Shown: positions 16,431-34,062 of the stretch, piece after piece
How the letters are laid out: each line of letters begins with the position of its first letter
Position numbering within the stretch: the first letter of the stretch is position 1
Source: a bacterium
Lineage (GTDB): Bacteria; Patescibacteriota; Minisyncoccia; UBA6257; WO2-44-18
Length of the DNA: 64,000 nt
Assembly: GCA_030689595.1 (NCBI GenBank)
Contig: JAUYHP010000031.1
Span: 22,666-86,665 of the forward strand
Direction: 5' to 3'
The notes under the pieces: model-generated
What the model was told of the DNA's origin: nothing
Seen by the model: the letters and a program-made list of their open reading frames with translations, nothing else
Database searches by the model: none
Position numbers and translations under genes: made by a program

Positions 16431-16466
16431 CATCCCCCCCGATGAGTATCGGGGGGTTTTTGTTTG
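16431..16466 (+). terminator. rho-independent terminator
   Basis: CCCCCCC-GATGAGTAT-CGGGGGG + TTTTTGTTT. Confidence 0.65.
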
Positions 16467-16665
16467 ACACGCCTACGCACGTCGAGGCAGGGCCAATCTA
16501 TGCAAAGAACTTCGGCGAGGCAAAGAGTTATCCACAGTTGCGGTTTGCGAATCTGCGCCACTGTTCTACAATTAACTTAGATCTTCGAAAAGGGAATACT
16601 TACAACTCCTCCCAACACAGAGGAATATAATGCGAACGCAACGTTCGCAAAAAAATTATAAAGTA

Positions 16666-16698
16666 TGGGCAACCAAGTGGTTGCCCTATTTTTTTATT
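16666..16698 (+). terminator. rho-independent terminator in the valS upstream region
   Basis: GGGCAACCA-AGT-GGTTGCCC + TATTTTTTTATTT. Confidence 0.55.
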
Positions 16699-16812
16699 TA
16701 AAAAGCCCATATAGGGGAGTTTTTTAATATCATCCTCCTATTAAGATCAAGTGCTAAGGAATTATGATTATCCTAGCCATCATGTCACCGAAACGCTATA
16801 ATCTTATTAACT

Positions 16813-19658: not shown

Positions 19659-19659
19659 T

Positions 19660-20154: not shown

Positions 20155-20178
20155 GCACTGGCGACTGATCTGATAGCC

Positions 20179-20703: not shown

Positions 20704-20735
20704 AGTTTATCATATTAAAATAGACCACAACTGAT

Positions 20736-22451: not shown

Positions 22452-22476
22452 AGACTTTTATTAATTTATTACAAAC

Positions 22477-23805
22477 ATGTCAGAAGCGGAAAATAAAATG
22501 GAAAAAATTATAAGCTTGTGCAAAAGGCGTGGCTTCGTTTTTCCCGGCTCGGAAATTTATGGTGGCCTAGCTAATTCTTGGGATTACGGCCCACTAGGTG
22601 TGGAGTTAAAAAATAATATTAAAAATGAGTGGTGGAAGATTTTTGTCCAGCAACGCAGCGACGTCGTTGGTCTAGATGCCGCCTTAATAATGAACCCAAA
22701 AGTCTGGGAAGCTAGCGGGCACCTAAAAGGCTTCACTGACCCCCTAGTAGAGTGCAAAAAATGCCATGGACGCTTTCGCACTGATCAAATTGATATCGAG
22801 GCCGCCTGCGCAAAATGCGGTGCCGAAGCTGATTTTACCGACACCAAACAATTCAATATGATGTTCAAAACTAATCTTGGGCCAGCTGCAGATAGCGCCA
22901 GTGAAGTCTATTTACGACCGGAGACGGCACAAGCTATGTTTGTAGATTTTAAACTGATAGCCGAAACCACCCGCAAGCGCCTTCCTTTCGGCATAGCTCA
23001 AATCGGCCGATCTTTCAGAAACGAGATTACTCCTGGTAATTTTATTTTTCGCACACGTGAATTTGAGATGATGGAAATAGAATACTTCGTTAAAGAAGCT
23101 GATTGGAAAAATAATTTTGAAATGTGGCGCAGCGAAATGGAGAAATGGCTACGACATTTAGGCGTTGACTTAGCTAATATTCATTTCGAAGAAGTTGAAG
23201 AAAAAGATCGCGCCCATTATTCCAGCCGCACTATAGATATAGAATACGACTTTCCTTTCGGGCAAGACGAATTATATGGGCTGGCCTATCGCAGCGATTT
23301 TGATTTAAAAAATCATATGGAAAATAGTAATCAAGATCTTTCCTATACTGATCCGGACAGTGGCGAAAAAGTCATACCCCACGTGATAGAGCCGACTTGG
23401 GGTGTTGATCGCTCGATGCTAGTAGCACTATTAGAAGCCTACCAAGAAGAAGTGGCGCCAAGCGCCGATGGAACAGAAGAACAACGCGTAGTCTTAAAAT
23501 TCCCCAAATGGCTCGCCCCAATTAAGATAGCTGTTCTGCCATTGTCAAAAAAAGAAAATTTAGCCGCAGTAGCCAAACCGCTCTATGAACAATTAACCAA
23601 AAGGTTTGCTTGCGAATATGACGAAACCCAAAGCATTGGCAAGCGCTATCGTCGTCAAGATGAAATCGGCACGCCTTATGCAGTAACAGTCGACTTTGAT
23701 ACGCTGGAAGATGAAGCCGTTACAGTTCGCGACCGAGACACTATGAAACAAGAAAGAATCAAGATCGATGAATTAGAAAACTATTTAGAGGAGCGACTTA
23801 AATAG
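22477..23805 (+). CDS. glyQS: glycyl-tRNA synthetase (alpha2 dimeric type)
   Basis: class II motifs, GFVFPGSEIYGGLANSWDYGPLG N-terminus. Confidence 0.9.
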   Translation: MSEAENKMEKIISLCKRRGFVFPGSEIYGGLANSWDYGPLGVELKNNIKNEWWKIFVQQRSDVVGLDAALIMNPKVWEASGHLKGFTDPLVECKKCHGRFRTDQIDIEAACAKCGAEADFTDTKQFNMMFKTNLGPAADSASEVYLRPETAQAMFVDFKLIAETTRKRLPFGIAQIGRSFRNEITPGNFIFRTREFEMMEIEYFVKEADWKNNFEMWRSEMEKWLRHLGVDLANIHFEEVEEKDRAHYSSRTIDIEYDFPFGQDELYGLAYRSDFDLKNHMENSNQDLSYTDPDSGEKVIPHVIEPTWGVDRSMLVALLEAYQEEVAPSADGTEEQRVVLKFPKWLAPIKIAVLPLSKKENLAAVAKPLYEQLTKRFACEYDETQSIGKRYRRQDEIGTPYAVTVDFDTLEDEAVTVRDRDTMKQERIKIDELENYLEERLK

Positions 23806-23844
23806 CCCCAAATATTAACCCATAACCATAAACTAAAAACCGCC

Positions 23845-25116
23845 ATGAAATATTTTAAAAGAATTGTTTTAAAAAATGGCCTACGCATAATCTTGGCTCC
23901 ACAGCCAAGCAGCTTAGCTACTACGGTATTAGTGCTGGTTGAAGCCGGATCAAAATATGAAACTAAAAACATCAACGGTTTATCGCACTTCCTAGAGCAT
24001 ATGTGCTTTAAAGGCACGACTAAGCGGCCGCAGGCCATTGATATCGCCTCTGAACTTGACGCCCTTGGAGCATCTTATAATGCCTTCACCTCTCAAGAAT
24101 GGACCGGCTATTACGCTAAAGTGGAAACTAACAATGCTGACAAAGCCCTGGATATAATTAGTGATCTATATCTAAACCCAACTTTTGCCGCCGCCGAAAT
24201 CGAAAAAGAAAAAGGTGTTATTATCGAAGAGCTTAACATGTACGAAGACACGCCACAGCGCAAAGTGCACGACCTCTTCTCAACAGTGCTCTATGGTGAC
24301 CAGCCAGCTGGGTGGGATATTGGTGGGCGCAAAGAGGTCATTAGAAAACTTAATCGCAATAATTTTATAAAATATCGTGATAAGCATTATGTAGCTAAGG
24401 CTACTACGGTAGTTATTGCTGGTGCTATCGATGAAAAATCGTTGTTGCCAAAAATAAAGGACCACTTCATAAATATCAGCTCCGGTCAAAAGTCTAGAAA
24501 AATAAAAACCATCGAGATACAAGCCCGCCCGAAAAGCTTAGTTAGATTTAAAGAGTCTGATCAAACACATTTAATTATCGGCTGTCGAGCGTTCAACGCA
24601 TTTGATAAGAGACGGTATGCGCTAGATGTATTAAGCAATATCTTAGGCGGGGGGATGAGCTCGCGACTATTCCAAAAGGTCCGCGAAGAACTGGGCGCGG
24701 CGTATTATATCGGTAGCAACTCAGAACTATTTACGGATCATGGCTATTTTGCAGCTGCCGCCGGCGTCGATCATCAGAAAATAGAAATAGTGATCAAAGC
24801 TATTCTTAAAGAATTCTCAGCACTAACAGACAAAAACGTACCCGCTTCAGAATTACGTCGCGCCAAAGACAGTTTGAGCGGCCGATTGATTTTGGGACTC
24901 GAGACATCAGACGCTCTAGCTATGTTTTATGGTGGGCAAGAGGTTATGAAAGAAAAGATTGTTACACCAAAGGAAATATTACAAAAAATTAGACTAGTGA
25001 CACCAGAAGAAGTAAAAGCAGTGGCTAAATACATCTTCCAAAATAATAAGCTCAACTTATCCGTAATTGGACCATATAAGAATTCAGCCAAGATCGCTGG
25101 CTTACTGAGGCTATAA
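23845..25116 (+). CDS. M16-family (insulinase/pitrilysin-like) zinc peptidase
   Basis: HFLEHMCFKGT inverted zinc-binding HxxEH motif. Confidence 0.8.
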   Translation: MKYFKRIVLKNGLRIILAPQPSSLATTVLVLVEAGSKYETKNINGLSHFLEHMCFKGTTKRPQAIDIASELDALGASYNAFTSQEWTGYYAKVETNNADKALDIISDLYLNPTFAAAEIEKEKGVIIEELNMYEDTPQRKVHDLFSTVLYGDQPAGWDIGGRKEVIRKLNRNNFIKYRDKHYVAKATTVVIAGAIDEKSLLPKIKDHFINISSGQKSRKIKTIEIQARPKSLVRFKESDQTHLIIGCRAFNAFDKRRYALDVLSNILGGGMSSRLFQKVREELGAAYYIGSNSELFTDHGYFAAAAGVDHQKIEIVIKAILKEFSALTDKNVPASELRRAKDSLSGRLILGLETSDALAMFYGGQEVMKEKIVTPKEILQKIRLVTPEEVKAVAKYIFQNNKLNLSVIGPYKNSAKIAGLLRL

Positions 25117-25162
25117 TTGCGCTTTAAGGCCTTCTACCTTATATTTAGGTTATACACTATAA

Positions 25163-26188
25163 ATGGAGCCGCATAATTTCAACATAACCTGGGGAAGTCT
25201 ATGGAAAATACTTTTTATGCTCTTATTATCCTGGGCGCTGTTTCTGGCCATCGATATAGTTTTGGCATTATTTTTAGCCGTGGTGATTTCAGCCGCACTA
25301 GATCCAGTCGTCACTTGGCTAGAAGTTAAAAAAATACCTAGGATATTGAGCACTCTGGGTATATATATAGTGGCGCTTTTTATGTTGGCCCTGCTGGTCT
25401 ATCTAATCGTGCCTATTGCCCTGACAGAATTCAGCAATCTAATCGCCAGCTTAAATGAGAGCATCGGCAATGGCGATCTAGATTTTCTTAATATATCCAA
25501 AGGCATAGAGGTTATAAATCAGTCACTAACTAATGTTAGCAATTTACTACTCGGCGGTGGCCGTTCGTTCTTTGAAATCATATCTAAATTCTTTGGTGGA
25601 CTAGCGTTAACTGGATCGGTATTCGTACTGTCATTTTATCTAACAGTTGGTAGAGATGGCACCGAGAAATTTTTCATCAACATATTGCCAGCAATATATG
25701 AAAATCGAGCCATCGAACTTTATAATCGCATCCGCCGTAAATTGGGGCGCTGGCTACGAGGGCAACTACTCCTAAGCTTGGGTATAGGTGTGCTGGTGTT
25801 TATTGCACTCTCAATTTTGAATGTAAAATACAGTCTAGTTTTGGCGATCATTGCCGCCATCTTGGAGCTCATCCCATATGTGGGTCCAATCTTTAGCGGT
25901 GGCGTGGCAATCTTAGTGGCCTCCACCACCTCTTTAACATTGGGTCTTTATGTATTGATAGTATTTATAGTCATCCAGCAATTGGAAAACCAGATATTGG
26001 TACCGGCTGTGACTAATTTAACCACCAGCCTAAACCCAGTGGTTGTGTTAGTGGCATTACTAATGGGCGCACAGATATTCGGCTTTATTGGGTTGATACT
26101 AGCCGTCCCAGCTGCAGTATTAATACAAGAATTATTAGAAGATTGGGCAGCGGCCAACAAAAAGCGCAGCCGCGGCTTAGGGGTTTAA
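25163..26188 (+). CDS. AI-2E family transporter (UPF0118/PerM-like)
   Basis: 8-TM topology and conserved C-terminal GLIGLILAVP-like segment. Confidence 0.75.
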   Translation: MEPHNFNITWGSLWKILFMLLLSWALFLAIDIVLALFLAVVISAALDPVVTWLEVKKIPRILSTLGIYIVALFMLALLVYLIVPIALTEFSNLIASLNESIGNGDLDFLNISKGIEVINQSLTNVSNLLLGGGRSFFEIISKFFGGLALTGSVFVLSFYLTVGRDGTEKFFINILPAIYENRAIELYNRIRRKLGRWLRGQLLLSLGIGVLVFIALSILNVKYSLVLAIIAAILELIPYVGPIFSGGVAILVASTTSLTLGLYVLIVFIVIQQLENQILVPAVTNLTTSLNPVVVLVALLMGAQIFGFIGLILAVPAAVLIQELLEDWAAANKKRSRGLGV

Positions 26189-26194
26189 AAAACG

Positions 26195-26878
26195 ATGCCT
26201 TATAAAGACGGCAAAATCAGACTTTCGCCCTCGACTTTAAATTTATTTTTAGACTGCCAAAGATGCTTCTGGTTACACCACGTGCGAGGCGTACATCGCC
26301 CCCGTGGTATATTTCCATCATTGCCAAGCGGCATGGATATTTTAATCAAAACTTATTTTGATAAATATAGAAATGTTGGCCAATTGCCACCAGAGATTGA
26401 TGGATCGGTAGATGTAAAATTATTCCCCGATGTTGAAGTCTTAAATAAATGGCGCAACTGGCGCACTGGCCTAAACTATATCGACTCTGATACCGGAGCG
26501 ACACTGGGTGGCGCCCTGGATGATCTGGGCATAAAAGATGGCCTCTATGTTCCACTGGACTACAAAACACGCGGCTTTGACGTTAAGCCCGGCGGCGAAA
26601 GTTATTATAAAAACCAACTTAATTGCTACGGCTTGTTATTGCGCAAAAACGATCTGCCACCAGCCGATCACGCTTACTTGATATATTACATACCCAAAGA
26701 GATCAGCGAAAAGGGCATGGTCAGGTTCGATATAGTGCCCAAAAAGGTGCCCATCGACCCCGACGAAGCCCTTAAAACATTTCAAGAGGCAGTTGAATTA
26801 ATTAAAAGCCCGGCTCCTAGCAAACACACCGAATGTGAATATTGCTCTTGGGGCAGTGGGCTGTTGTTAGAGGATTAG
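26195..26878 (+). CDS. PD-(D/E)XK nuclease, Cas4/RecB-like with Fe-S cysteines (stand-alone)
   Basis: N-terminal CxxC-like Cys (LDCQRC), D...LDYKT (D/ExK) motif, QLNCYG, C-terminal CEYCSW. Confidence 0.5.
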   Translation: MPYKDGKIRLSPSTLNLFLDCQRCFWLHHVRGVHRPRGIFPSLPSGMDILIKTYFDKYRNVGQLPPEIDGSVDVKLFPDVEVLNKWRNWRTGLNYIDSDTGATLGGALDDLGIKDGLYVPLDYKTRGFDVKPGGESYYKNQLNCYGLLLRKNDLPPADHAYLIYYIPKEISEKGMVRFDIVPKKVPIDPDEALKTFQEAVELIKSPAPSKHTECEYCSWGSGLLLED

Positions 26879-26879
26879 A

Positions 26880-28469
26880 ATGAAAGAAGTATTAGAAAAA
26901 TTAATTACTCAAGCCATTGGCCAGAAAGCTGACTTTGATTTAACCGCTCCAGATAAATCTGATTTCGGTGATTATGCCACTAACGTGGCCTTTGTTTTGT
27001 CTAAAGCAGATGGACGAAGCCCTCTATCTATCGCTCAAGAATTAGTTGAAAAGATAAAATCAACCGATAATGGCAAGGTCATAAATAAAGCGGAAGCGGT
27101 AGCGCCAGGCTTCATCAATTTTTGGTTGAATCCAGAGATATTACTACAGGAACTAGCGGATATTCTAGATCAAAAAAATAAATATGGACGATTTAAGACG
27201 GCTACGCCGCAAAAGATACAAGTTGAGTTTGTTTCAGCTAATCCTACTGGCCCATTGACTATGGCCAATGGGCGCGGCGGTTTTTTAGGAGCAACGCTGG
27301 CTAACGTCCTGGAAGCGGCTGGTAATAAAGTTGTACGCGAATTTTATATCAATGATGCTGGCAATCAAGTTAAGTTATTAGGCGAAAGTGTTTTGGCAAT
27401 TATAGAGTCCACCGAGCTCAAAGACGAATATTATAAAGGCGACTATATAAAAAAACTAGCTGATAAATTCAAGAATAAGGCCGGCCGGATTAAAAAAACC
27501 GGAGGCCGCATAGTGGCCGATTACTTACTGCGACGCCATCTCAAGCCATCATTAAAAAATGCGGGTATTAAATTTGACAACTGGTTTTCAGAATATAGAA
27601 ATCTTCACAAAAAGGGTGAGCTGCAGAAAGTCTTAGAATTTTTGGAGGATAAGGGCCTCGCGATTGAGCATGATGGCGCTACTTGGTTAAAAACATCAGA
27701 TATAGCTGACGAAAAGGATCGAGTGTTAGTGAAATCGGATGGTTCGCCAACTTATTTCTTAGCAGATGTCGCCTATCATTACGACAAATTCATCAAGCGC
27801 AAATTTGATAAGGTGATAGATATTTGGGGGGCAGATCATCATGGTTATGTGGCCCGGCTCAAGGCGGGGGCAAAAACGATCGGTGCCGATCCGGAAAAGC
27901 TGGAAATAATTCTAGTTCAATTAGTGCGCTTAATGAAAGACGGGCAAGAATCACGAATGTCTAAACGAGCTGGTCAATTCATAACATTAGACGAGTTATT
28001 AAATGAGGTTGGTAAAGATGCTGCCCGTTTTCATTTTCTGATGTATGCCCCAGAAACACATATGGATTTTGATTTAGAATTGGCTAAAGAAAAATCTCTT
28101 AAAAATCCGGTTTATTATGTGCAATATGCTTATGTCAGGGCATTGGGTGTTTTATCTAAAGGTAGTGGTAGTATCGCCAATCATGCCGGCCTCAAAGAAC
28201 TTTCTAGTGACAGTGAGTTGCGGCTGATCAAGGAATTGATAAAATGGCCCGATATATTGAGGCAAACCACTGAAGACTATCAGATCAATAGGCTACCTCG
28301 ACATGCCATCGATATCTCGCGAGCATTTCATAACTTCTACGAACACGAAAGAGTGGTGTGTGTTGATCCGGCGATCATGAAAGCCAGACTGGCGCTCGTG
28401 TCAGCTACTAAAATTGTCTTGGAGAATGTTTTAAACATCTTGGGAGTTGACCTGCCGAAAAAGATGTAA
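26880..28469 (+). CDS. argS: arginyl-tRNA synthetase
   Basis: FVSANPTGPLTMANGRGG (HIGH-equivalent) and C-terminal DALR anticodon-binding domain. Confidence 0.9.
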   Translation: MKEVLEKLITQAIGQKADFDLTAPDKSDFGDYATNVAFVLSKADGRSPLSIAQELVEKIKSTDNGKVINKAEAVAPGFINFWLNPEILLQELADILDQKNKYGRFKTATPQKIQVEFVSANPTGPLTMANGRGGFLGATLANVLEAAGNKVVREFYINDAGNQVKLLGESVLAIIESTELKDEYYKGDYIKKLADKFKNKAGRIKKTGGRIVADYLLRRHLKPSLKNAGIKFDNWFSEYRNLHKKGELQKVLEFLEDKGLAIEHDGATWLKTSDIADEKDRVLVKSDGSPTYFLADVAYHYDKFIKRKFDKVIDIWGADHHGYVARLKAGAKTIGADPEKLEIILVQLVRLMKDGQESRMSKRAGQFITLDELLNEVGKDAARFHFLMYAPETHMDFDLELAKEKSLKNPVYYVQYAYVRALGVLSKGSGSIANHAGLKELSSDSELRLIKELIKWPDILRQTTEDYQINRLPRHAIDISRAFHNFYEHERVVCVDPAIMKARLALVSATKIVLENVLNILGVDLPKKM

Positions 28470-28579
28470 TTGTATGAGGATTAACCCATGCAATGCGAGG
28501 GTTTTTGTTTATATTGAAAAAAGTAAACGAATAATATATTCTAACAATAACTCAGTTTCTTGATAAAGGAGGCCCAACA

Positions 28580-28852
28580 ATGGTGATTCTTATTACCATC
28601 GCCATTCTATGGCTAGGACTCGGCCTAACCGCCTATGGATTATTTAAAGGAACTTTTATTAATGCGGTCATGATGGGGCAAGACCCCGATCTTAAGTGGA
28701 GACTTGGAGAAGAGCATCTATCCCACCTAGTCGTCCTTATGGGCGCCTATGGGCTTTGGGTGGTAATCAAAAATATTAAAAAAGCTAAAAAAATGTACCC
28801 AGATATGAAAATGGGCTTTAGCTTCTCGATTCCTCGAGAGTTTCAGGAATAA
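28580..28852 (+). CDS. small membrane protein, hypothetical
   Basis: two TM helices; RBS AAGGAGG upstream. Confidence 0.4.
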   Translation: MVILITIAILWLGLGLTAYGLFKGTFINAVMMGQDPDLKWRLGEEHLSHLVVLMGAYGLWVVIKNIKKAKKMYPDMKMGFSFSIPREFQE

Positions 28853-28878
28853 CATTAGGCCATTGAAAGGTGGCTTTT

Positions 28879-28913
28879 GCCCTCCATCGCCCTGGCGAAG
28901 GAGGGCCTTTTTA
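28879..28913 (+). terminator. rho-independent terminator
   Basis: GCCCTCC-ATCGCCCTGGCGAA-GGAGGGC + TTTTT. Confidence 0.55.
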
Positions 28914-28972
28914 TAATTTGCCCAGCGAGAGCATAATAGACGCCGAGTTGATTTTCCATTAACATAGATAAT

Positions 28973-31900
28973 ATGCTGCGTGGCCTAAAGCAATTTAATC
29001 TTCCCGACCTAGAGGAGAAAGTCCTCAAATTTTGGCAAGAAAATAATGTTTTTAAAAAATCGATAACTAATCGGGAGAAAAGTGGGGCCAAGCCCTTCCG
29101 TTTTTTTGAAGGCCCACCGACAGCCAACGGCCAACCGGGCATGCACCACGTCCTCGGTCGGGCCTTTAAAGATATCATGCTGCGCTATAAAACAATGCGC
29201 GGCTATTATGTTTGGCGAAGGGCCGGCTGGGACACGCACGGTTTGCCGGTAGAGATACAGGTTGAAAAAGAACTGGGCATAAAAAACAAGTCTGAGATCG
29301 AAAAATTTGGCATAGCAGGGTTTAATACTCGCGCCAAAGCTTCGGTGTGGAAGTATAAAATAGAATGGGAAAAATTAACCAACAGAATTGGTTTTTGGTT
29401 GGATTTTGAGAATCCATACATAACTTACGACAATAATTATATCGAAAGTCTGTGGTGGACTCTAAGCCAAATAAATAAACGCGGTCTACTTAAAAAAATA
29501 TATAAGGTGGTGCCCTGGTGCCCACGCTGCCAAACACCACTATCCAGCCACGAACTGGGTCAACCTGGCGCATATCAGAAAACCAAGGATCCATCGGCTT
29601 ACGTTAAGTTTGCATTGAAACCCCCCTCCGCCAAGACTTCGAAGGACAAACCAGCAAAAACTAAAGAGTTTTTGCTGGTTTGGACTACTACTCCATGGAC
29701 ATTGCCGGCCAATACGGCTATAGCCGTAAACCCGAAATTGACCTATACCAAATACAAAATAGGCAATGAGTATTTGTGGAGCTACAACCCGCCACCAGCG
29801 AACGATAAGACATCGGAAATACAGGTAGTAGAAAAAATATCCGGCAATAAATTAGTCGGGATCGAATATAAACCGTTATATCCAAATACAGGAACCCATA
29901 AAGTTATTGGGGCAGATTTCGTTTCCACCGAAGACGGCACAGGTTTAGTGCATATAGCTCCGGCCTTTGGCGAAGAGGACCTGAAAGCCATGTCAAGAGA
30001 AAATTTTCCGCTAGCAGATATACCAATAACCATTGACGATCTGGGGATCGTGAATAAAGGCTTGCCTGGTGCTGGTAAATTTATTAAAGATGCTGACAAA
30101 GATATATCGGCCGATTTAGCAGAGCGCGGCTTACTGTATCATCAGGATAAAATTGAACATGAATATCCATTTTGTTGGAGATGCTCGGCGCCATTGATAT
30201 ATTTTGCTCGCGATTCGTGGTTTATATCCATGAGCAAATTACGCACTAGCTTATTAGCCGCTAATAAAACAATCAACTGGGTGCCAGCACATATAAAAGA
30301 AGGGCGGTTTGGAGAGTGGCTAAGAGAAGTTAAGGATTGGGCCATATCTCGCAATCGCTACTGGGGAACGCCGCTGCCCATATGGGAATGTAACAATGAC
30401 CACAAGCTAATAATCAGCGATCTTGATGATTTGAATAAACATCGTTATAGCTTAAATAAAATCTTATATGTCAGGCATGGTGAGTCTGACCACAACCTAA
30501 GCAAGATATTGGCTAGTGGGGCTGAGCGTGGCAATAAAAAATCTAAGCTCACTAAACTAGGCACAGAACAAGTAAGTAAGTTGGCTAAAAAACTTAAGAA
30601 GGAAAACATAGATGCCATTTATGCCTCTCCTTATTTCAGGACTCGACAAACAGCAGAAACGATCGGCAAAGAGCTGGGGCTGAAAGTCGTTTATGATGAA
30701 CGCCTGGGGGAAATCCAGTTGGGTGTGTTCAATGGCATGCATGAAAGAGAGTACCGCAACTTCTTTGCCAACCCACTGGAACGATTCATTAAAACACCGC
30801 CGGGTGGAGAAAATCTAGCCGACGTTAGAAAGCGAATGCTATCGGCCGTAGCTGATATACGAGCCAAACATTCTGACAGCAATATCATAATAGTGGGACA
30901 TGGTGATCCATTGTGGCTTATGGCCAGCGGCATAAGGGGTTTGTCGAACGAAGAAACTCTGGAGGCTGATTATCCTAAGGTCGGATCATCTAGTAAATTA
31001 GCATCAAATAATTGGCCAATGGATCAAAACGGCCAACTAGATTTACATAGGCCATATATAGATAGCATATTTTTGAAATGTCCCAACTGCAAAGAGAAAA
31101 TGACCCGGATAAAAGAGGTGGCTGACGTTTGGTTCGATTCGGGTGCCATGCCTTATGCGCAATGGCATTATCCATTTGAAAACAAAGAACTGGTTGATAA
31201 GAAGCTACAATACCCGGCCGATTATATCGTTGAGGGCGTAGACCAAACCCGCGGCTGGTTTTATACCCTCTTGGCAGTCAGTACGTTACTTAAGCGTGGC
31301 GCGCCATATAAAAACGTGGTTTCGCTAGGATTGTTGTTAGATAAAAACGGACAGAAGATGTCTAAATCGAAGGGGAACGTAGTTGACCCATGGGAAATGA
31401 TTCAAAAATATGGAGCTGATACAATACGTTGGTTTTTCTATACCATCAACGCGCCCGGTGAAACTAAAAAATTCGACGAGAATGAATTGTCCAAAGTTTT
31501 GCGCAATTTCTTTTTGATGATTTACAACTCTTACAACTTTTTACAAACTTACGATGCCAGCTCCGTGGGCAAGCCCATCAAAATACTCGACACCTGGATC
31601 TTGGCTAGATTGCATCAGACAACGGCCGATGTCACCTCGAACTTGGAAAAATATGAAATCGGACAAGCAGCTAAGGTCATAGAAAAATTTGTTAATGACC
31701 TGTCACGCTGGTATATCCGACGCTCTAGAAAAAATGTATCGCCTAAAATCCTTAAGCAATCCCTAGAAACTCTAGCCAAATTGATGGCACCATTTTCACC
31801 ATTTTTTGCCGAAACGCTATATCAGGCCCTAAATGATGGAAAACAATTTAAATCTGTCCATTTAGTTGATTGGCCGGAAACTAACAAAAAGGCTCTAGAC

Positions 31901-32404
31901 GAAAATTTGTTGTCAGCTATGGATGAGTTAAGAAAATTAGCAGCCCTAGCCTTAGCGGCCAGAGAGAAAGCCGGCATAAAAGTCAGGCAACCACTTAATG
32001 TTTTAAAAATATATAGCACTAAATCTGAAATTAAAAATTATAAAGAGTTACTAATCATATTGGCCGATGAAATCAATGTTAAAAAAGTCGTTTTCGATGA
32101 AGAAGTAGACGACGTTGAATTGGATATTGAAATAACGCCGGAATTAAAAGCCGAAGGAACGATGCGTGAATTAATGCGATCTGTACAAAAACTGCGACAC
32201 GACGCTAAGTTGCAGCCCAAGGATATGATTAATCTATATATGGAATTACCAGATCAACTGAAGACCGTAGCTACAGCCAATTTGGCCAAACTTAAAAAAG
32301 ATATTAAAGCTAAATCCATAGATTTTAAAAAGGGCAAAATAGATGCCGAAACAAGTACAAAACTAGATAATCAACCCATCTGGGTAGGGCTTAAGAAAAT
32401 ATAG
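28973..32404 (+). CDS. ileS: isoleucyl-tRNA synthetase with an inserted histidine-phosphatase (PGAM/SixA-like) domain (~nt 30430-31030)
   Basis: PPTANGQPGMHHVLGRAF HIGH region, WAISRNRYWGTPLP, KMSKSKGN; internal RHGESDHN ... RTRQTA ... IIIVGHGD block matches the histidine phosphatase superfamily. Confidence 0.9.
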   Translation: MLRGLKQFNLPDLEEKVLKFWQENNVFKKSITNREKSGAKPFRFFEGPPTANGQPGMHHVLGRAFKDIMLRYKTMRGYYVWRRAGWDTHGLPVEIQVEKELGIKNKSEIEKFGIAGFNTRAKASVWKYKIEWEKLTNRIGFWLDFENPYITYDNNYIESLWWTLSQINKRGLLKKIYKVVPWCPRCQTPLSSHELGQPGAYQKTKDPSAYVKFALKPPSAKTSKDKPAKTKEFLLVWTTTPWTLPANTAIAVNPKLTYTKYKIGNEYLWSYNPPPANDKTSEIQVVEKISGNKLVGIEYKPLYPNTGTHKVIGADFVSTEDGTGLVHIAPAFGEEDLKAMSRENFPLADIPITIDDLGIVNKGLPGAGKFIKDADKDISADLAERGLLYHQDKIEHEYPFCWRCSAPLIYFARDSWFISMSKLRTSLLAANKTINWVPAHIKEGRFGEWLREVKDWAISRNRYWGTPLPIWECNNDHKLIISDLDDLNKHRYSLNKILYVRHGESDHNLSKILASGAERGNKKSKLTKLGTEQVSKLAKKLKKENIDAIYASPYFRTRQTAETIGKELGLKVVYDERLGEIQLGVFNGMHEREYRNFFANPLERFIKTPPGGENLADVRKRMLSAVADIRAKHSDSNIIIVGHGDPLWLMASGIRGLSNEETLEADYPKVGSSSKLASNNWPMDQNGQLDLHRPYIDSIFLKCPNCKEKMTRIKEVADVWFDSGAMPYAQWHYPFENKELVDKKLQYPADYIVEGVDQTRGWFYTLLAVSTLLKRGAPYKNVVSLGLLLDKNGQKMSKSKGNVVDPWEMIQKYGADTIRWFFYTINAPGETKKFDENELSKVLRNFFLMIYNSYNFLQTYDASSVGKPIKILDTWILARLHQTTADVTSNLEKYEIGQAAKVIEKFVNDLSRWYIRRSRKNVSPKILKQSLETLAKLMAPFSPFFAETLYQALNDGKQFKSVHLVDWPETNKKALDENLLSAMDELRKLAALALAAREKAGIKVRQPLNVLKIYSTKSEIKNYKELLIILADEINVKKVVFDEEVDDVELDIEITPELKAEGTMRELMRSVQKLRHDAKLQPKDMINLYMELPDQLKTVATANLAKLKKDIKAKSIDFKKGKIDAETSTKLDNQPIWVGLKKI

Positions 32405-32408
32405 ACAA

Positions 32409-32439
32409 ATAAAAAGGCCCCCTGAAATTTCAGGGGGCT
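32409..32439. terminator. hairpin terminator shared by ileS (+) and the minus-strand gene 32447..32887
   Basis: AAAAA-GCCCCCTGAAATTTCAGGGGGC; T-run on the minus strand. Confidence 0.55.
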
Positions 32440-32446
32440 ATATCCA

Positions 32447-32887
32447 TCAGACAATCACCGTAGCGAAGCGGCAGACGGGTGCCCAGTGGAAATTGGCTGC
32501 CATATGCAGCGAAACAATACGATTGTTACCTTCGCCCTGAAGACTGTCAGTCCCCAGATAGGGAGCCAGATAATTCCCAGGAGAATGCTCCAGCTGAGAT
32601 CCCAAGCCGACGATGGGATACTCCTTCTGAAGATAGGGGAATTGCCAACCCAATTCCAGCAACAGACGAAGATTGACTGGAGTAACCGCGTTGGCTTTCA
32701 AGCCACGCAAAACCTCACCTGTCTCAACCTCCGAGTCAAGATGGATTAATGAGATGCGTGCCTCTGTGACGCCAGCCAAGCTATAGCCAGCTGGCACTTC
32801 ATCGATGACCGGACTCACGCTGCTGTAGCCACCCTTCTGCAACAACTCCTCAATGGTAAGTCCAGACAACCTGACACTATATAACAT
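32447..32887 (-). CDS. hypothetical protein (146 aa) encoded in a GC-rich (~56%) islet
   Basis: AAGGAG RBS 8 nt before ATG; protein-like composition; own consensus promoter. Confidence 0.45.
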   Translation of the reverse strand: MLYSVRLSGLTIEELLQKGGYSSVSPVIDEVPAGYSLAGVTEARISLIHLDSEVETGEVLRGLKANAVTPVNLRLLLELGWQFPYLQKEYPIVGLGSQLEHSPGNYLAPYLGTDSLQGEGNNRIVSLHMAANFHWAPVCRFATVIV

Positions 32888-32993
32888 AGGCCACGCTCCT
32901 TACTGCGATTGGGATTGTGCAGCTCACGCCATTCCTCACTCCAAGCGAGAGAGCGCCAGCTACTAATCAAAGAACAAGTTGTCGTGAAAGTAT

Positions 32994-33028
32994 ATAATAA
33001 AACAACGAGTGCGTCAACCATATAGATT
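32994..33028 (-). promoter_or_regulatory. near-consensus sigma70 promoter (TTGACG-17-TATATACT) on minus strand
   Basis: -35 at 33026-33021, extended TA-rich -10 at ~33003-32996. Confidence 0.5.
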
Positions 33029-33075
33029 GCGGAGCAAGCCCACGCGGGTTACAGAATAACCCTACTCTAACCGTA

Positions 33076-34062
33076 CTACTTGCTACTCAATAGTTTAATG
33101 GCGTCTTTAACCCCAGCCATTTTAGCCGATGCCATCTTATAACCCACAGCATTGCCGTCAGCTAGCTGTTTTCTAACTTGAGAAATCTTTTTAGATAACT
33201 GCCGCTTCTTTTTATTGAATGGCTCAAAATAAGAGACAACTAAATCGGCTAAATCGTCCTTAAAATGAGAATATTGTTTGCCGGCAAACTTTTTTTCTAC
33301 TTTAGCGTTAGTTAAACCAGAAAGCTCACCATAGATCAACATTAGGTTGGAAATGGCCGGTTTTTTAGATTCGTCGAATCTGACTTCGCTCCCGGAATCG
33401 GTGACTGCCCTCATCACTTTATTTTTGACGACTTCTGGTGCGTCATCCAAAAACAAACAACCCTGAGGCAATGACTTAGACATTTTCTTAGTTGGATCAT
33501 CCAAGCTCATTAACCTAGGCGTTTTAGACAAAATAGCTTCAGGCTCAATGAATGTTTTGCCAAATTTTTTATTAAACTTGCGAGCTATTTCTCTGGTTAA
33601 TTCTAAATGCTGCAACTGATCTTCGCCCACTGGTACAAACTTAGGATCATAAAGCAATATATCCGCCGCCATTAAAGTTGGATAAGTTAGCAACCCAGCG
33701 TTCTGACTATTTTTTTGTGATGACTTATCTTTAAATTGGGTCATGCGATATAAATCACCAAGCGGGGTTAGCGTATTGAATATCCACGCCAATTCTGTGG
33801 AAAATGGAACGGACGATTGCATAAAAATAGTCGATTTCTTAGCATCTAGGCCGCTAGCTAAATAATCGACTACCAAATTAAGACTATACTGACCGATCTC
33901 GTCGCTATAATTAGTCAAAGAATGATAATCGGCTATAAAAAAGTAGCATTGGTACTTGCCCGAATTTTGAAGTTCGATAAATTGTTTTAAGGCACCCAAG
34001 TAATTACCAATATGTAGCCTGCCCGTTGGTTGAATGCCCGATATAAGAACTGGCTTAGCCAT
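33076..34062 (-). CDS. trpS: tryptophanyl-tRNA synthetase
   Basis: SGIQPTGRLHIGNYLGA (HIGH) and KMSKS motifs. Confidence 0.9.
   Translation of the reverse strand: MAKPVLISGIQPTGRLHIGNYLGALKQFIELQNSGKYQCYFFIADYHSLTNYSDEIGQYSLNLVVDYLASGLDAKKSTIFMQSSVPFSTELAWIFNTLTPLGDLYRMTQFKDKSSQKNSQNAGLLTYPTLMAADILLYDPKFVPVGEDQLQHLELTREIARKFNKKFGKTFIEPEAILSKTPRLMSLDDPTKKMSKSLPQGCLFLDDAPEVVKNKVMRAVTDSGSEVRFDESKKPAISNLMLIYGELSGLTNAKVEKKFAGKQYSHFKDDLADLVVSYFEPFNKKKRQLSKKISQVRKQLADGNAVGYKMASAKMAGVKDAIKLLSSK

What the first reader, a model, noticed from the sequence alone, without database searches (positions are those of the whole stretch)
30430..31030. Isoleucyl-tRNA synthetase carrying an embedded histidine-phosphatase (PGAM/SixA-like) domain
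Within ileS, between the conserved WAISRNRYWGTPLP segment and the Zn-finger/KMSKS region (CPNC...DVWFDSG), there is a ~190-aa insertion with the complete histidine phosphatase signature. It has the catalytic RHG (LYVRHGESDHN), a second Arg (YFRTRQTAETIG), an acidic residue (LGEIQLG) and the distal His (IIIVGHGDPLW). All catalytic residues appear intact, so this is probably an active phosphatase rather than a degenerate linker. A phosphatase fused inside an aminoacyl-tRNA synthetase catalytic core is unusual. It could act on nucleotide or phospho-substrates at the active site, or be a moonlighting regulatory module. I do not recall this architecture being described, but I cannot check.
Basis: partly seen in the sequence, partly recalled or inferred. 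Interest (0 to 1): 0.6.

Follow-up and report, generated by a model that had tools for sequence, protein, structure and literature searches.

The report
Isoleucyl-tRNA synthetase with nested histidine phosphatase
The enzyme that loads isoleucine onto tRNA in this tiny-genome (Patescibacteria/CPR) bacterium has a complete, apparently active histidine phosphatase built into its catalytic core. Hundreds of related species share this arrangement, no searchable paper describes it, and the phosphatase's substrate is still unknown.

Summary
ORF 28973-32404 (+, 1143 aa) is one uninterrupted type-2 IleRS. A ~196-aa His_Phos_1 domain (Pfam E=3.7e-38; aa 492-687, nt 30446-31033) sits between the two halves of a Zn-knuckle hairpin, where Priestia megaterium IleRS2 has ~6 residues.

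It is a clade trait, not an artefact. All 120 closest homologues carry it, with the catalytic R-H/R/E/H residues invariant. At least 308 GTDB species genomes match one motif of the insert. All 80 loci fetched encode it within a single IleRS open reading frame.

New here:
- In lineages whose IleRS lacks the insert, the same phosphatase is a separate ~190-aa gene next to ileS and/or argS in all 7 informative contigs. In four it lies directly upstream of ileS (overlapping its start by 10 nt in one).
- The domain is also nested in ValRS at two recurrent sites, at a second IleRS site, and in up to four copies per protein. It is also fused to TsaC/Sua5 and ATP sulfurylase.

So this is an active phosphohydrolase persistently linked to IleRS. 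My best guess is that it clears pyrophosphate, the product shared by all fusion partners, at about 0.35 confidence. An unrelated housekeeping phosphatase locked in by chance is nearly as likely.

Ten literature searches found no description. I rate it a new variant of a known kind, interest 0.65.

The parts
28973..32404 (+). ileS: a single 1143-aa ORF encoding a type-2 IleRS with a nested histidine phosphatase domain
   Evidence: ORF list. TIGR00392 863 bits against cutoff 621. Pfam tRNA-synt_1 + His_Phos_1 + Anticodon_1 + DUF5915. The AF2 model matches IleRS2 8c8v with target-normalised TM 0.79.
28973..30445 (+). IleRS N-terminal part (aa 1-491): first half of the catalytic fold, the CP1 editing domain, the WAISRNRYWGTPLP motif and the first half of the Zn knuckle
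   Evidence: Aligns to 8c8w residues 12-478. The editing motif WTTTPWT (aa 237-243) and G322/G324/V326/H327/P330/G333/D336 are invariant in 120 homologues.
29138..29149 (+). G-M-H-H (aa 56-59): the non-canonical GXHH form of the class I HIGH motif
   Evidence: Sequence. GXHH dominates in the clade. Brkic et al. 2023 (PMC10485003) link this motif to mupirocin hyper-resistance in IleRS2.
30383..30400 (+). First half of the Zn knuckle, degenerate here (W-E-C-N-N-D; only one Cys)
   Evidence: C473 is present in 104/120 homologues. Some homologues keep a second Cys here (e.g. IWECEKCDAT), as does the alignment consensus.
30446..31033 (+). Inserted segment (aa 492-687): histidine phosphatase domain plus short linkers
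   Evidence: Absent from 8c8w and from insert-less CPR IleRS. Insert length is 194-207 aa in all 120 homologues. AF2 of the insert alone gives pLDDT 89.3; the Foldseek best match is PspA 4ij6 (E=1.7e-15, TM 0.72-0.79).
30464..30967 (+). Pfam His_Phos_1 (PF00300) match, aa 498-665
   Evidence: E=3.7e-38, 131.6 bits, profile positions 2-169 of 194.
30473..30478 (+). R501-H502: the RHG motif with the phospho-accepting histidine
   Evidence: 120/120 conserved. Conserved in every architecture class and in 48/48 ValRS inserts.
30638..30640 (+). R556: second phosphate-binding arginine
   Evidence: 120/120; 48/48 in ValRS inserts.
30710..30712 (+). E580: general acid (proton donor)
   Evidence: 119 Glu + 1 Asp of 120. 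48/48 Glu in ValRS inserts. Replaced by Gln only in the ATP-sulfurylase fusion.
30899..30901 (+). H643: second catalytic histidine, within the subfamily motif [SG]HG[DH]PLW
   Evidence: 120/120. This motif alone retrieved 308 GTDB species genomes.
31079..31090 (+). Second half of the Zn knuckle (C-P-N-C, aa 703-706)
   Evidence: C703 and C706 are 120/120. Aligns to CPVC of 8c8w.
31034..32401 (+). IleRS C-terminal part (aa 688-1143): second half of the catalytic fold with KMSKS (nt 31355-31369), the anticodon-binding domain and the type-2 C-terminal domain
   Evidence: Aligns to 8c8w 485-856. K795 M796 S797 K798 are invariant. Pfam Anticodon_1 and DUF5915.
26880..28469 (+). argS, directly upstream. 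In insert-less lineages the free-standing phosphatase gene usually lies between argS and ileS
   Evidence: Pfam Arg_tRNA_synt_N / tRNA-synt_1d / DALR_1. argS lies directly upstream of the fused ileS in 39 of 59 loci with enough upstream sequence. Gene order around the solo phosphatase.
28580..28852 (+). 90-aa hydrophobic ORF between argS and ileS. It is not a phosphatase remnant
   Evidence: No Pfam hit. No match to the insert HMM.

Best explanation
The gene encodes a Patescibacteria IleRS of type 2 (the MupA-like, mupirocin-resistant lineage). A catalytically competent small histidine phosphatase of the PhoE/PspA type is nested in the tip of a Zn-knuckle hairpin of the catalytic domain. The claim has four layers, with separate confidence for each.

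(a) Architecture, about 0.97. It is one polypeptide with two intact enzymes.

(b) The phosphatase is active, about 0.85. It should use the standard two-step chemistry of its superfamily. H502 attacks a terminal phosphoryl group held by R501, R556 and H643. E580 protonates the leaving group, and the phospho-histidine is then hydrolysed.

(c) The pairing with IleRS is persistent rather than accidental, about 0.75. Sister lineages encode the same phosphatase as a separate gene next to ileS and/or argS, usually directly upstream of an insert-less ileS. Nesting has happened repeatedly in IleRS and ValRS.

(d) Substrate, inferred, about 0.3-0.35. The domain most likely removes a phosphate-bearing product of the adenylation reaction. 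Inorganic pyrophosphate is the best candidate: ATP + Ile gives Ile-AMP + PPi. Hydrolysing PPi would prevent pyrophosphorolysis of Ile-AMP and pull activation forward, in the way soluble pyrophosphatase does elsewhere.

Steps (a) to (c) rest on sequence and comparative data obtained here. Step (d) is an inference from the set of fusion partners.
For: Architecture and integrity.

Catalytic competence:
- R501, H502, R556 and H643 are invariant and E580 is 119/120 across homologues that are only about 48% identical within the insert, against about 63% in the IleRS body.
- The same residues are conserved in 48/48 ValRS inserts and in the solo, tandem and Sua5-fused forms.
- The fold matches PspA, PhoE and Rv2419c phosphatases.

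The IleRS itself looks functional: GXHH and KMSKS motifs, editing motifs and Zn ligands are conserved.

Spread:
- All 120 best full-length hits carry PF00300.
- 308 GTDB species genomes match one motif, and all 80 fetched loci have the insert within a single IleRS open reading frame, cut only at contig ends.
- Named taxa include Harrison-, Colwell-, Lipton-, Brenner-, Jorgensen-, Wolfe-, Nealson- and Uhrbacteria, Paceibacter and Spechtbacterales.

Persistent linkage:
- Free-standing ~190-aa members of the same subfamily (35-44% identical to the insert, with the same SHGDPLW motif) lie next to argS and/or ileS in 7 of 7 contigs long enough to judge.
- Four solos lie directly upstream of ileS on the same strand (10-nt overlap with the ileS start for P0128; 7-10 nt gaps for P0137, P0149 and P0187). 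In a fifth (P0145) ileS is convergent on the opposite strand. Two contigs reach only argS.
- Wherever the insertion site is covered, that ileS lacks the insert. The host IleRSs are only 38-50% identical to the window's and include both GXHH and HYGH types.
- Conversely, only 1 of 80 fused loci has another His_Phos ORF within about 10 kb, and argS sits directly upstream in 39 of 59.

Recurrent nesting:
- A second IleRS site, before the anticodon domain (P0223).
- Two ValRS sites: inside the homologous Zn knuckle, and after DTWFSS..GWP.
- A further ValRS site, and four copies in one protein (P0123).
- Two or three tandem copies in IleRS (P0220, P0154).

The PPi idea:
- Among the best 150 cluster representatives from an exhaustive HMMER search, the only fusion partners are IleRS, ValRS, TsaC/Sua5 and ATP sulfurylase. 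All four make an adenylate and release PPi (established enzymology).
- ATP sulfurylase fused to a conventional inorganic pyrophosphatase is documented in stramenopiles and haptophytes, and explained there as pulling an unfavourable equilibrium (Patron et al. 2008, PMC2275785).
- Tandem amplification fits a dose-dependent scavenging activity better than a precise structural role (inference).
- No family I pyrophosphatase was found in the 1.19 Mb held. This is weak evidence.
Against: - I know of no branch-1 histidine phosphatase that acts as a pyrophosphatase. The closest structures are phosphomonoesterases: phosphoserine, glucosyl-3-phosphoglycerate and broad-specificity phosphatases, and a riboflavin-pathway phosphatase.
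- PPi diffuses freely, so tethering a hydrolase to one synthetase gives little kinetic advantage unless it is the cell's general pyrophosphatase.
- The partner argument is weaker than it first looks. CPR Sua5/YrdC is fused to many unrelated domains (Ogt, TruB, 2H phosphoesterase, NUDIX, GNAT, DNA glycosylase).
- The ATP-sulfurylase fusion has Gln in place of the catalytic Glu.
- LeuRS, MetRS and other PPi-releasing enzymes were not among the partners seen.
- Conserved gene order alone does not prove a shared function. E. coli ribF-ileS-lspA is a conserved operon of unrelated genes (my own knowledge).
- No solo phosphatase gene lies next to an insert-less valS in a close relative of the ValRS fusions.
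- I could not measure the position of the phosphatase pocket relative to the ATP site, because the tools return no model coordinates.
- I could not check whether these genomes lack ppa or hppA.
Confidence: 0.35

Rival explanations
1. An unrelated housekeeping enzyme that became locked in. The domain is a general small-molecule phosphatase or mutase that the cell needs anyway. One example is the phosphoglycerate mutase reported as missing from some Parcubacteria; others are a phosphoserine or sugar-phosphate phosphatase. It sat next to ileS by inherited gene order and was copied into a permissive surface hairpin. The solo copy was then lost, so the nested copy became indispensable (constructive neutral evolution). 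Its chemistry has nothing to do with aminoacylation.
For: - The closest characterised relatives are metabolic phosphomonoesterases.
- The top NCBIfam hit for the insert is an archaeal dPGM model.
- Jaffe et al. 2020 (PMC7304191) report PGM absent from several shallow Parcubacteria clades, possibly because of HMM thresholds. An annotation scheme that assigns one function per protein would hide a domain nested in IleRS (inference).
- CPR genomes fuse genes promiscuously, for example Sua5.
- aaRS genes are clustered in this window, with valS 10 kb from ileS, so local rearrangement could seed both hosts.
- The Zn-knuckle tip is used in both IleRS and ValRS, as expected of a permissive site.
Against: - Only IleRS, ValRS, Sua5 and ATP sulfurylase appear as partners among the best 150 representatives. 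There are no ribosomal, polymerase or other large housekeeping proteins.
- There are at least five distinct internal insertion sites, plus tandem amplification up to four copies.
- The solo gene keeps its place beside argS/ileS across IleRS lineages only 38-50% identical.
- dPGM membership fails: 99.8 bits against a cutoff of 225. The ERHYG, K100 and RR substrate-binding residues of GpmA-type mutases (from my knowledge) are absent: the sequence reads E-I-Q-L-G and there is no RR pair.
- The PspA and CobC models also fail their cutoffs.
Confidence: 0.3
2. A phosphatase acting on a nucleotide or on the tRNA 3' end. The domain would remove a 2'/3'-terminal phosphate left after RNase or toxin cleavage from tRNA, or dephosphorylate a nucleotide by-product. 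This would restore or protect the substrates of class Ia synthetases, which aminoacylate the 2'-OH of A76.
For: - All partners except ATP sulfurylase belong to tRNA metabolism: IleRS, ValRS and TsaC/Sua5, with argS as a neighbour.
- In CPR, Sua5 is also fused to 2H/CPDase-type phosphoesterases and to TruB, which suggests an RNA-end or tRNA theme.
- Actinobacteria have an RNase H-histidine phosphatase fusion, recognised by an NCBIfam model that the insert matches weakly (NF005567).
Against: - I know of no member of this superfamily that acts on RNA ends.
- TsaC does not bind tRNA (my own knowledge).
- The window already encodes a CCA-adding enzyme with an HD domain. In E. coli that domain supplies 2',3'-cyclic phosphodiesterase and phosphatase activities for end repair (my own knowledge).
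- The insert is only mildly basic (30 K+R against 24 D+E), much like the rest of the protein (144 against 117), so there is no obvious added RNA-binding surface.
- The ATP sulfurylase fusion does not fit.
Confidence: 0.12
3. A regulatory or self-protecting protein phosphatase. The domain would remove inhibitory phosphorylation from the synthetase itself (as installed on other synthetases by HipA-type toxin kinases) or from a partner protein. Alternatively it would degrade a phosphate-bearing inhibitor. The IleRS with a GNAT domain recognised by NCBIfam would be a possible analogue.
For: - The superfamily includes protein phosphatases such as SixA, PGAM5 and Sts-1 (my own knowledge).
- An IleRS with an accessory GNAT domain exists as a curated NCBIfam exception model (NF040702).
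- The clade's GXHH motif suggests a history of antibiotic pressure on this enzyme.
Against: - There is no evidence for such kinases or inhibitors in these organisms.
- The closest structural relatives are small-molecule phosphatases, not SixA-type enzymes.
- Tandem copies and the ATP sulfurylase and Sua5 fusions are hard to explain this way.
Confidence: 0.07
4. A structural spacer, or an artefact. Either the domain no longer catalyses anything and merely replaces or stabilises the degenerate Zn knuckle, or the fusion is an assembly or frameshift error joining two genes.
For: The first CxxC of the knuckle is degenerate in the window protein (C-N-N-D), so the hairpin may need another stabiliser.
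Against: - The catalytic residues are invariant, while the rest of the insert evolves faster than the host.
- Some homologues keep a second Cys in the first half of the knuckle and still carry the insert, as does the alignment consensus.
- The same ORF appears in two independent assemblies and in 80 loci from different species.
- There is no compositional break at the insert.
Confidence: 0.03

Closest known systems
Type-2 (MupA-like, mupirocin-resistant) bacterial IleRS, e.g. Priestia megaterium IleRS2 (PDB 8c8u/8c8w) and Thermus thermophilus IleRS (1ILE)
   Same: Same family and fold: E=5.6e-229 to 8c8w and Foldseek target-normalised TM 0.79 to 8c8v. It shares the CP1 editing domain, KMSKS, the type-2 C-terminal domains (Anticodon_1 + DUF5915) and the non-canonical GXHH signature described for IleRS2.
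   Different: It has a 196-aa catalytic phosphatase domain where the reference has about 6 residues between the two CxxC halves of a Zn knuckle. The first CxxC is degenerate in the window protein.
PhoE / PspA / Rv2419c-type small histidine phosphatases (branch 1 of the histidine phosphatase superfamily, PF00300)
   Same: Same fold and the same full catalytic set, R-H-G ... R ... E ... H-G. About 26-28% identity to PspA and PhoE. It also has the GGE..R motif common to this subgroup.
   Different: It is not free-standing but nested in another enzyme. It has its own subfamily signature, [SG]HG[DH]PLW. It fails the curated cutoffs of the PspA, CobC, GpmB and dPGM models. Its substrate is unknown.
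Lineage-specific modules in or on aaRS catalytic cores (the LeuRS leucine-specific domain; the IleRS with a GNAT domain, NCBIfam NF040702)
   Same: An extra module attached to a class Ia synthetase. The segment between WGxPxP and DxWFxS is, to my knowledge, a region where class Ia enzymes differ by lineage-specific insertions.
   Different: To my knowledge the LeuRS module has no independent catalytic activity. Here the insert is a complete second enzyme from an unrelated superfamily. It also exists as a separate gene next to ileS. The window protein does not belong to the GNAT-containing family (301 bits against a cutoff of 1999).
ATP sulfurylase fused to inorganic pyrophosphatase in stramenopiles and haptophytes (Patron et al. 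2008, PMC2275785)
   Same: A PPi-releasing adenylyl-transfer enzyme covalently joined to a phosphohydrolase. This is the functional analogy behind the proposed mechanism.
   Different: In that case the hydrolase is a conventional pyrophosphatase fused end to end. Here it is a PGAM-fold histidine phosphatase inserted internally, and pyrophosphatase activity is only hypothesised.
Bifunctional RNase H / acid phosphatase of Actinobacteria (NCBIfam NF005567, PRK07238)
   Same: A histidine phosphatase of the same branch fused to a nucleic-acid enzyme. The insert matches this model at 82 bits.
   Different: That is a terminal fusion to a different partner, and to my knowledge its functional logic is also unresolved. 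The insert does not reach that model's cutoff of 326 bits.

Membership tests
Isoleucine--tRNA ligase (NCBIfam TIGR00392 equivalog), type 2 | Whole-protein score above the curated cutoff | tested here: met
   863.2 bits against a cutoff of 621.4, in two stretches split by the insert.
Isoleucine--tRNA ligase (NCBIfam TIGR00392 equivalog), type 2 | Class I signature motifs: HIGH (or the IleRS2 variant GXHH) and KMSKS | tested here: met
   GMHH at aa 56-59 and KMSKS at aa 795-799. Both are conserved in the clade. GXHH is a documented functional variant in IleRS2.
Isoleucine--tRNA ligase (NCBIfam TIGR00392 equivalog), type 2 | CP1 editing domain with a Thr-rich motif and the conserved His/Asp region | tested here: met
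   WTTTPWT at aa 237-243 and G322/G324/V326/H327/P330/G333/D336 are invariant in 120 homologues. aa 201-399 match the isolated T. thermophilus editing-domain structures.
Isoleucine--tRNA ligase (NCBIfam TIGR00392 equivalog), type 2 | Type-2 C-terminal organisation (anticodon-binding domain plus ARD-type C-terminal domain, no C-terminal Zn treble clef) | tested here: met
   Pfam Anticodon_1 at 873-1010 and DUF5915 at 994-1142. The best structural matches are IleRS2 and eukaryotic IleRS.
Isoleucine--tRNA ligase (NCBIfam TIGR00392 equivalog), type 2 | Isoleucine-specific aminoacylation activity | not testable with these tools
   Needs an enzyme assay. Whether this is the only ileS in the genome could not be checked, because only the 64-kb window and loci of +-10 kb were available.
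Histidine phosphatase superfamily, branch 1 (Pfam PF00300) | Profile score above the gathering threshold | tested here: met
   131.6 bits against 21.7, E=3.7e-38, profile positions 2-169 of 194.
Histidine phosphatase superfamily, branch 1 (Pfam PF00300) | Catalytic core: RHG histidine nucleophile, two arginines, a second histidine and an acidic proton donor | tested here: met
   R501, H502, R556, E580 and H643 are present and conserved at 119-120 of 120.
Histidine phosphatase superfamily, branch 1 (Pfam PF00300) | PGAM-like alpha/beta fold | tested here: met
   The AF2 model of the insert (pLDDT 89.3) matches PspA, PhoE and Rv2419c with TM 0.70-0.79.
Histidine phosphatase superfamily, branch 1 (Pfam PF00300) | Phosphatase or mutase activity through a phospho-histidine intermediate | not testable with these tools
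   Needs biochemistry.
Cofactor-dependent phosphoglycerate mutase (dPGM) | Curated model score, and the substrate-binding residues of GpmA-type mutases (ERHYG Tyr, Lys100, Arg116-Arg117; residue list from my knowledge) | tested here: not met
   dPGM_arch NF038349 scores 99.8 bits against a cutoff of 225. GpmB scores 61.9 against 261, and PRK01295 39.5 against 316. The sequence after the catalytic Glu is E-I-Q-L-G, and there is no RR pair before the PPGGE motif.
PspA-type phosphoserine phosphatase (NF045917) and alpha-ribazole phosphatase CobC (TIGR03162) | Curated equivalog cutoffs | tested here: not met
   PspA scores 91.5 bits against 350. CobC scores 81.1 against 162.9.
Inorganic pyrophosphatase (family I) | Sequence homology to Ppa | tested here: not met
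   No Pfam or NCBIfam pyrophosphatase model matches the protein. The suggestion that it works like a pyrophosphatase is functional only and untested.
Intein (considered because the insert lies in a conserved site of an essential enzyme) | Hint/splicing domain; nucleophile at the N-terminal junction; His-Asn plus Cys/Ser/Thr at the C-terminal junction | tested here: not met
   No Hint or intein family appears in the Pfam scan. The junction sequences (..HR|YSLNK.. and ..QNG|QLDLH..) lack the splicing residues. The insert is a conserved enzyme domain.
Acquired mupirocin-resistance IleRS (MupA/MupB) and the GNAT-containing IleRS (NF040702) | Curated exception-model cutoffs | tested here: not met
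   MupB scores 754 and MupA 753 bits against 1900. ileS_w_GNAT scores 301 against 1999.

The most novel reading that the evidence does not exclude
The nested domain and its free-standing relatives next to ileS are a new kind of inorganic pyrophosphatase built on the histidine-phosphatase (PGAM) fold. They would serve as the main, or a dedicated, pyrophosphate sink of a large part of the Patescibacteria, physically integrated into class Ia aminoacyl-tRNA synthetases so that amino-acid activation carries its own driving force. A variant of similar novelty is that the domain is the glycolytic phosphoglycerate mutase reported as missing from some Parcubacteria, hidden inside IleRS and overlooked by annotation that assigns one function per gene.
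Probability: 0.25. Interest if true: 0.85.

Novelty: new variant of a known kind. Interest (0 to 1): 0.65.

Why it matters
Aminoacyl-tRNA synthetases are among the most conserved enzymes known, and their catalytic cores rarely acquire a whole second enzyme. Here a complete, conserved phosphatase is tied to IleRS across a large bacterial radiation. It is either nested in the catalytic core or encoded next to the gene. It has also been nested independently in ValRS, sometimes in several copies.

- If the phosphatase acts on a product of the aminoacylation reaction, this would be a new form of product removal wired into translation. It would also be a new activity for the PGAM fold.
- If it is an unrelated housekeeping enzyme, it is a clean natural example of a free-standing gene and an internal domain of an essential protein occurring as alternative states in related lineages. 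It would also be a likely source of false "missing enzyme" calls in metabolic reconstructions of CPR genomes.
- Public annotation often labels these proteins only as "class I tRNA ligase family protein".

Either way the question is directly testable with one recombinant protein and one point mutant.

Tried and rejected
1. Frameshift or two genes. Rejected: a single ORF, the identical protein in two independent assemblies, and a single IleRS ORF carrying the insert in all 80 species-level loci, cut only at contig ends.

2. A Zn/CP module misread as a phosphatase. Rejected by Pfam (E=3.7e-38) and by the fold match.

3. Intein. Rejected: no Hint domain and no splicing residues.

4. Recent foreign insertion. 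Rejected: GC and GC3 match the host gene, and the insert is clade-wide.

5. Membership in dPGM, GpmB, PspA, CobC, SixA-like or RNase H/acid phosphatase families. All curated cutoffs failed.

6. Fold search with the full model returned only IleRS structures. No coordinates are returned, so I could not measure the distance or orientation between the phosphatase pocket and the synthetic site.

7. Search for a family I pyrophosphatase in the window plus 80 loci (1.19 Mb) found none. Because the sample is centred on ileS, this says little.

8. A solo phosphatase gene next to an insert-less valS of a close relative of the ValRS fusions. Not found.

9. The "all partners release PPi" argument was tested with a Sua5-fusion query. 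Four clusters of Sua5-phosphatase fusions are real. However, CPR Sua5 is also fused to Ogt, TruB, 2H phosphoesterase, NUDIX, GNAT and a DNA glycosylase, which weakens the argument. The ATP-sulfurylase fusion has Glu replaced by Gln.

10. Literature. Ten searches found no description of the architecture and nothing on pyrophosphatase content of these lineages.

11. The Rfam scan and the promoter/terminator scan around the gene showed nothing relevant.

Full report
**1. What is in the sequence**

The interval lies inside one long ORF, 28973..32404 on the + strand, 1143 aa. NCBIfam identifies it as isoleucine--tRNA ligase (TIGR00392, 863 bits; cutoff 621). The match comes in two pieces, aa 6-483 and a C-terminal part. 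Pfam finds tRNA-synt_1, Anticodon_1 and DUF5915. Between the two halves of tRNA-synt_1 it finds His_Phos_1 (PF00300) at aa 498-665, E=3.7e-38.

Alignment to the crystal-structure sequence of Priestia megaterium IleRS2 (8c8w) pairs query 12-491 with 12-478 and query 688-1050 with 485-856. About 196 residues (aa 492-687, nt 30446-31033) therefore replace about six.

The insertion point is the tip of a Zn-knuckle hairpin. The reference reads WECEGC...(short loop)...CPVC. The window protein reads WECNND...[phosphatase]...CPNC.

AlphaFold2 with a 120-sequence alignment gives mean pLDDT 91.7 and pTM 0.85, with the insert as confident as the rest. The model matches IleRS2 structures, with target-normalised TM up to 0.80. 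The insert modelled alone (pLDDT 89.3) matches the phosphoserine phosphatase PspA, PhoE and the glucosyl-3-phosphoglycerate phosphatase Rv2419c at TM 0.70-0.79.

**2. Not an artefact, not recent**

The identical protein occurs on an NCBI contig of 191.6 kb and on an independent Logan assembly of run SRR13727534. GC and GC3 of the insert equal those of the host gene. There is no intein signature. No promoter or terminator signal stands out inside the gene.

**3. A clade-wide, selected feature**

All 120 best full-length homologues (53-68% identity by BLASTP, 1119-1241 aa) carry PF00300. The insert is 194-207 aa in all of them. Within it R501, H502, R556 and H643 are 120/120 and E580 is 119/120, together with T527, G530, S552, G584, E613 and R621. 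Overall the insert is less conserved than the IleRS body (48% against 63% mean identity to the query).

That pattern, invariant catalytic residues on a faster-evolving scaffold, indicates retained enzymatic activity. The IleRS motifs are conserved too: GXHH, KMSKS, the editing-site motifs and the Zn ligands.

A scan of one genome per GTDB species with the single peptide pattern [SG]HG[DH]PLW[VML][LM] gave 308 confirmed genomes. All 80 loci kept show the insert within a single IleRS open reading frame, cut only at contig ends. Record titles name Harrison-, Colwell-, Lipton-, Brenner-, Jorgensen-, Wolfe-, Nealson- and Uhrbacteria, Paceibacter, Tyrphobacter and Spechtbacterales. That covers much of the Parcubacteria/Paceibacteria part of the Patescibacteria.

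**4. The relatives of the inserted domain**

An exhaustive HMMER search of 1.84 billion cluster representatives with the insert alone gave 2170 hits at E<=1e-10. I classified the best 150 by local BLAST and Pfam:

- about 90 IleRS or IleRS fragments with the domain at the same site, whose N-terminal IleRS parts are mostly only 36-65% identical to the window's;
- about 55 proteins of 137-260 aa, some of them fragments, including complete free-standing ~190-aa proteins that are 35-44% identical to the insert and share the SHGDPLW motif;
- five two-domain tandem proteins;
- ValRS fusions (P0263, P0123);
- one His_Phos + PUA_2 + ATP-sulfurylase protein (P0146, whose 90% cluster has three members from three data sources);
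- one Sua5/YrdC + His_Phos protein (P0230).

No other partner type occurs. Solo and nested domains are interleaved by similarity.

**5. The key comparative result**

I looked up the genomic context of the free-standing members. P0128 lies, in four contigs from four JGI and ENA samples, between argS and an IleRS of 938 aa that has no insert. Its stop codon overlaps the ileS start by 10 nt. The other solos:

| Solo | Context |
|---|---|
| P0187 | argS, phosphatase, insert-less ileS (962 aa), with gaps of 1 and 9 nt |
| P0137 | argS, two small ORFs and a 164-aa ORF, phosphatase, insert-less ileS 7 nt downstream |
| P0149 | phosphatase directly upstream of ileS, argS 3.8 kb further up |
| P0145 | directly after argS, with ileS convergent next to it |
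| P0129, P0143 | directly after argS, then the contig ends or is too short |
| P0160 | contigs too short to judge |

Seven of seven informative cases are therefore at the argS/ileS locus. Wherever the insertion site is covered, that ileS lacks the insert. These IleRSs are only 38-50% identical to the window's and include both GXHH and canonical HYGH types.

Conversely, in the fused lineages argS sits directly upstream of ileS in 39 of 59 loci with enough upstream sequence. Only 1 of 80 loci has any other His_Phos ORF within about 10 kb. The window itself reads argS (26880-28469), a 90-aa hydrophobic ORF, then ileS with the insert.

The solo gene and the nested domain thus look like alternative states of the same component at the same locus.

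**6. Recurrent nesting**

ValRS fusions are common in another part of the radiation (Magasanikbacteria, Falkowbacteria). Of the 120 best ValRS hits, 48 carry the domain, all with R, H, R and E intact and the second His in 47 of 48 (a gap in the last). Close relatives, up to 71% identical over the aligned N-terminal part, lack it.

Two ValRS sites recur. One is inside the homologous Zn knuckle (CxxC...[domain]...CxxC...DTWFSS, about 11 proteins). The other is after DTWFSS..STLGWP and before the FHPTSVLETGYDI strand (about 35 proteins).

- P0123, a ValRS, has one copy between CP1 and the WCISRQ motif and three more after IPVWY. All four have RHG.
- P0223, an IleRS, has one copy at the usual site and a second between the KMSKS region and the anticodon-binding domain.
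- P0220 and P0154 have tandem copies.

That makes at least five distinct insertion sites in two paralogous synthetases. In the window's own organism ValRS (16813-18993) has no insert.

**7. What it most likely does**

Two things are shown: two intact enzymes in one chain, and a persistent, repeatedly reinvented linkage between this phosphatase subfamily and IleRS (and ValRS).

The substrate is inferred. The domain belongs to the small PhoE/PspA-like group but fails the curated cutoffs of every characterised family: dPGM, GpmB, PspA, CobC and the RNase H/acid phosphatase. It also lacks the GpmA-type mutase residues (sequence; residue list from my knowledge).

The one property shared by all four fusion partners is that each forms an adenylate from ATP and releases pyrophosphate. 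ATP sulfurylase fused to a conventional pyrophosphatase is a documented way of pulling that reaction (PMC2275785). I therefore favour a product-clearing role, with PPi as the best candidate substrate, at about 0.3-0.35.

The counter-arguments are real:
- I know of no branch-1 histidine phosphatase that is a pyrophosphatase.
- PPi diffuses freely.
- CPR Sua5 is fused to many unrelated domains.
- The ATP-sulfurylase fusion has Gln at the proton-donor position.
- Conserved gene order can persist without a shared function.

The main rival, at about 0.3, is a housekeeping phosphatase or mutase that was copied from its neighbouring position into a permissive hairpin and then became indispensable. 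The report that PGM is not detected in several Parcubacteria clades (PMC7304191) makes a hidden-PGM version of this rival worth testing, although the dPGM membership tests failed.

A tRNA-end or nucleotide phosphatase (about 0.12) and a protein-phosphatase or self-protection role (about 0.07) are less supported. The window already encodes a CCA-adding enzyme with an HD domain.

**8. Comparison with what is known, and novelty**

The host is an ordinary IleRS2 with the GXHH motif described by Brkic et al. 2023. The guest is an ordinary-looking member of PF00300. What is new is the combination and its comparative pattern.

Full-text searches for IleRS or tRNA synthetase together with histidine phosphatase, His_Phos_1 or phosphoglycerate-mutase domain returned nothing relevant. 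A 2026 preprint that annotated domain architectures of 96,219 IleRS sequences from GTDB does not mention a phosphatase insert.

Databases do contain the proteins. NCBI calls many of them only "class I tRNA ligase family protein". IMG calls some ValRS versions "valyl-tRNA synthetase/broad specificity phosphatase PhoE". The sequences are therefore public but the feature appears undescribed.

I rate it a new variant of a known kind: an accessory domain in an aaRS, and a PGAM-family fusion protein. Interest is 0.65.

**9. Limits**

- The tools return no model coordinates, so the geometry between the two active sites is unknown.
- Only +-10 kb around each gene could be read. I therefore could not determine whether the fused gene is the sole ileS, or whether these genomes lack pyrophosphatase or PGM genes.
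- Names attached to many MAG records (for example "uncultured Candidatus Saccharibacteria" for TPA bins) may be generic.

Noticed in passing
window 29138-29149 (aa 56-59 of ileS): The class I HIGH motif is the swapped form G-M-H-H. This GXHH variant is the one shown to give mupirocin hyper-resistance in IleRS2 (PMC10485003). It dominates in the whole insert-bearing clade, although a few members have H-M-G-H.
   Followed up: partly
window 30383-30400 versus 31079-31090: The first half of the Zn knuckle that hosts the insert is degenerate in this protein (C-N-N-D instead of CxxC). The second half (CPNC) is invariant, and some homologues keep a second Cys in the first half. Whether zinc is still bound here is unclear.
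   Followed up: partly
window 16813-18993 (+): The ValRS is only 726 aa and matches the valS models up to position ~695 of 860. It therefore lacks the C-terminal coiled-coil tRNA-binding arm. It has no phosphatase insert. The next ORF (18984-19658), which overlaps its end, is a PrsW-like intramembrane protease, not the missing ValRS tail.
   Followed up: partly
window 14988-34062: A dense cluster of translation genes: TsaD, ValRS, GlyRS, ArgRS, IleRS and TrpRS within about 19 kb, with RNase J just beyond. A RecO-like gene lies nearby, as it does downstream of ileS in the loci that carry the solo phosphatase.
   Followed up: partly
P0123 (ENA, contigs up to 3.9 kb): A ValRS with four histidine phosphatase domains: one between CP1 and the WCISRQ motif and three in tandem after IPVWY. 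All have RHG. The protein is truncated by the contig end.
   Followed up: partly
P0146 / P0271 / P0272 (contigs up to 114 kb): An ATP sulfurylase with an N-terminal domain of the same phosphatase subfamily, in which the catalytic Glu is replaced by Gln (..RRLSQMNCG..). It may bind a ligand rather than hydrolyse it.
   Followed up: partly
hits (P0392-P0508): In Patescibacteria the Sua5/YrdC (TsaC) domain is fused to a striking variety of partners. These include methylguanine methyltransferase (very common), TruB, 2H/CPDase-type phosphoesterases, NUDIX, GNAT, a purine DNA glycosylase, and the histidine phosphatase (four clusters).
   Followed up: no
L020 1743-2531: This is the only one of the 80 fused-ileS loci with a second histidine-phosphatase ORF (263 aa stop to stop). 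It matches the insert profile weakly (86 bits) and lies about 6 kb upstream of ileS.
   Followed up: no
window 46098-47678 (+): A CCA-adding enzyme with an HD domain (PolyA_pol head, RNA-binding, HD and tRNA_NucTran2_2 domains). In E. coli this type has 2',3'-cyclic phosphodiesterase and phosphatase activities (my own knowledge), which is relevant to the tRNA-end-repair rival.
   Followed up: no
window 49500-52000: A stretch with raised GC (0.52 against a window mean of 0.43). It contains overlapping ORFs on both strands (49530-50588 +, 49785-50594 -) and a 315-aa ORF (50762-51709), none of the scanned ones with a Pfam hit. It lies next to a tRNA-Val/Lys/Arg cluster at 49100-49361.
   Followed up: no
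window 57643-59811, 59854-60765, 43103-44089, 1687-2649, 38846-40105, 44312-45451: Several sizeable ORFs (303-722 aa) have no Pfam match at E<=0.001. This is typical of CPR genomes.
   Followed up: no
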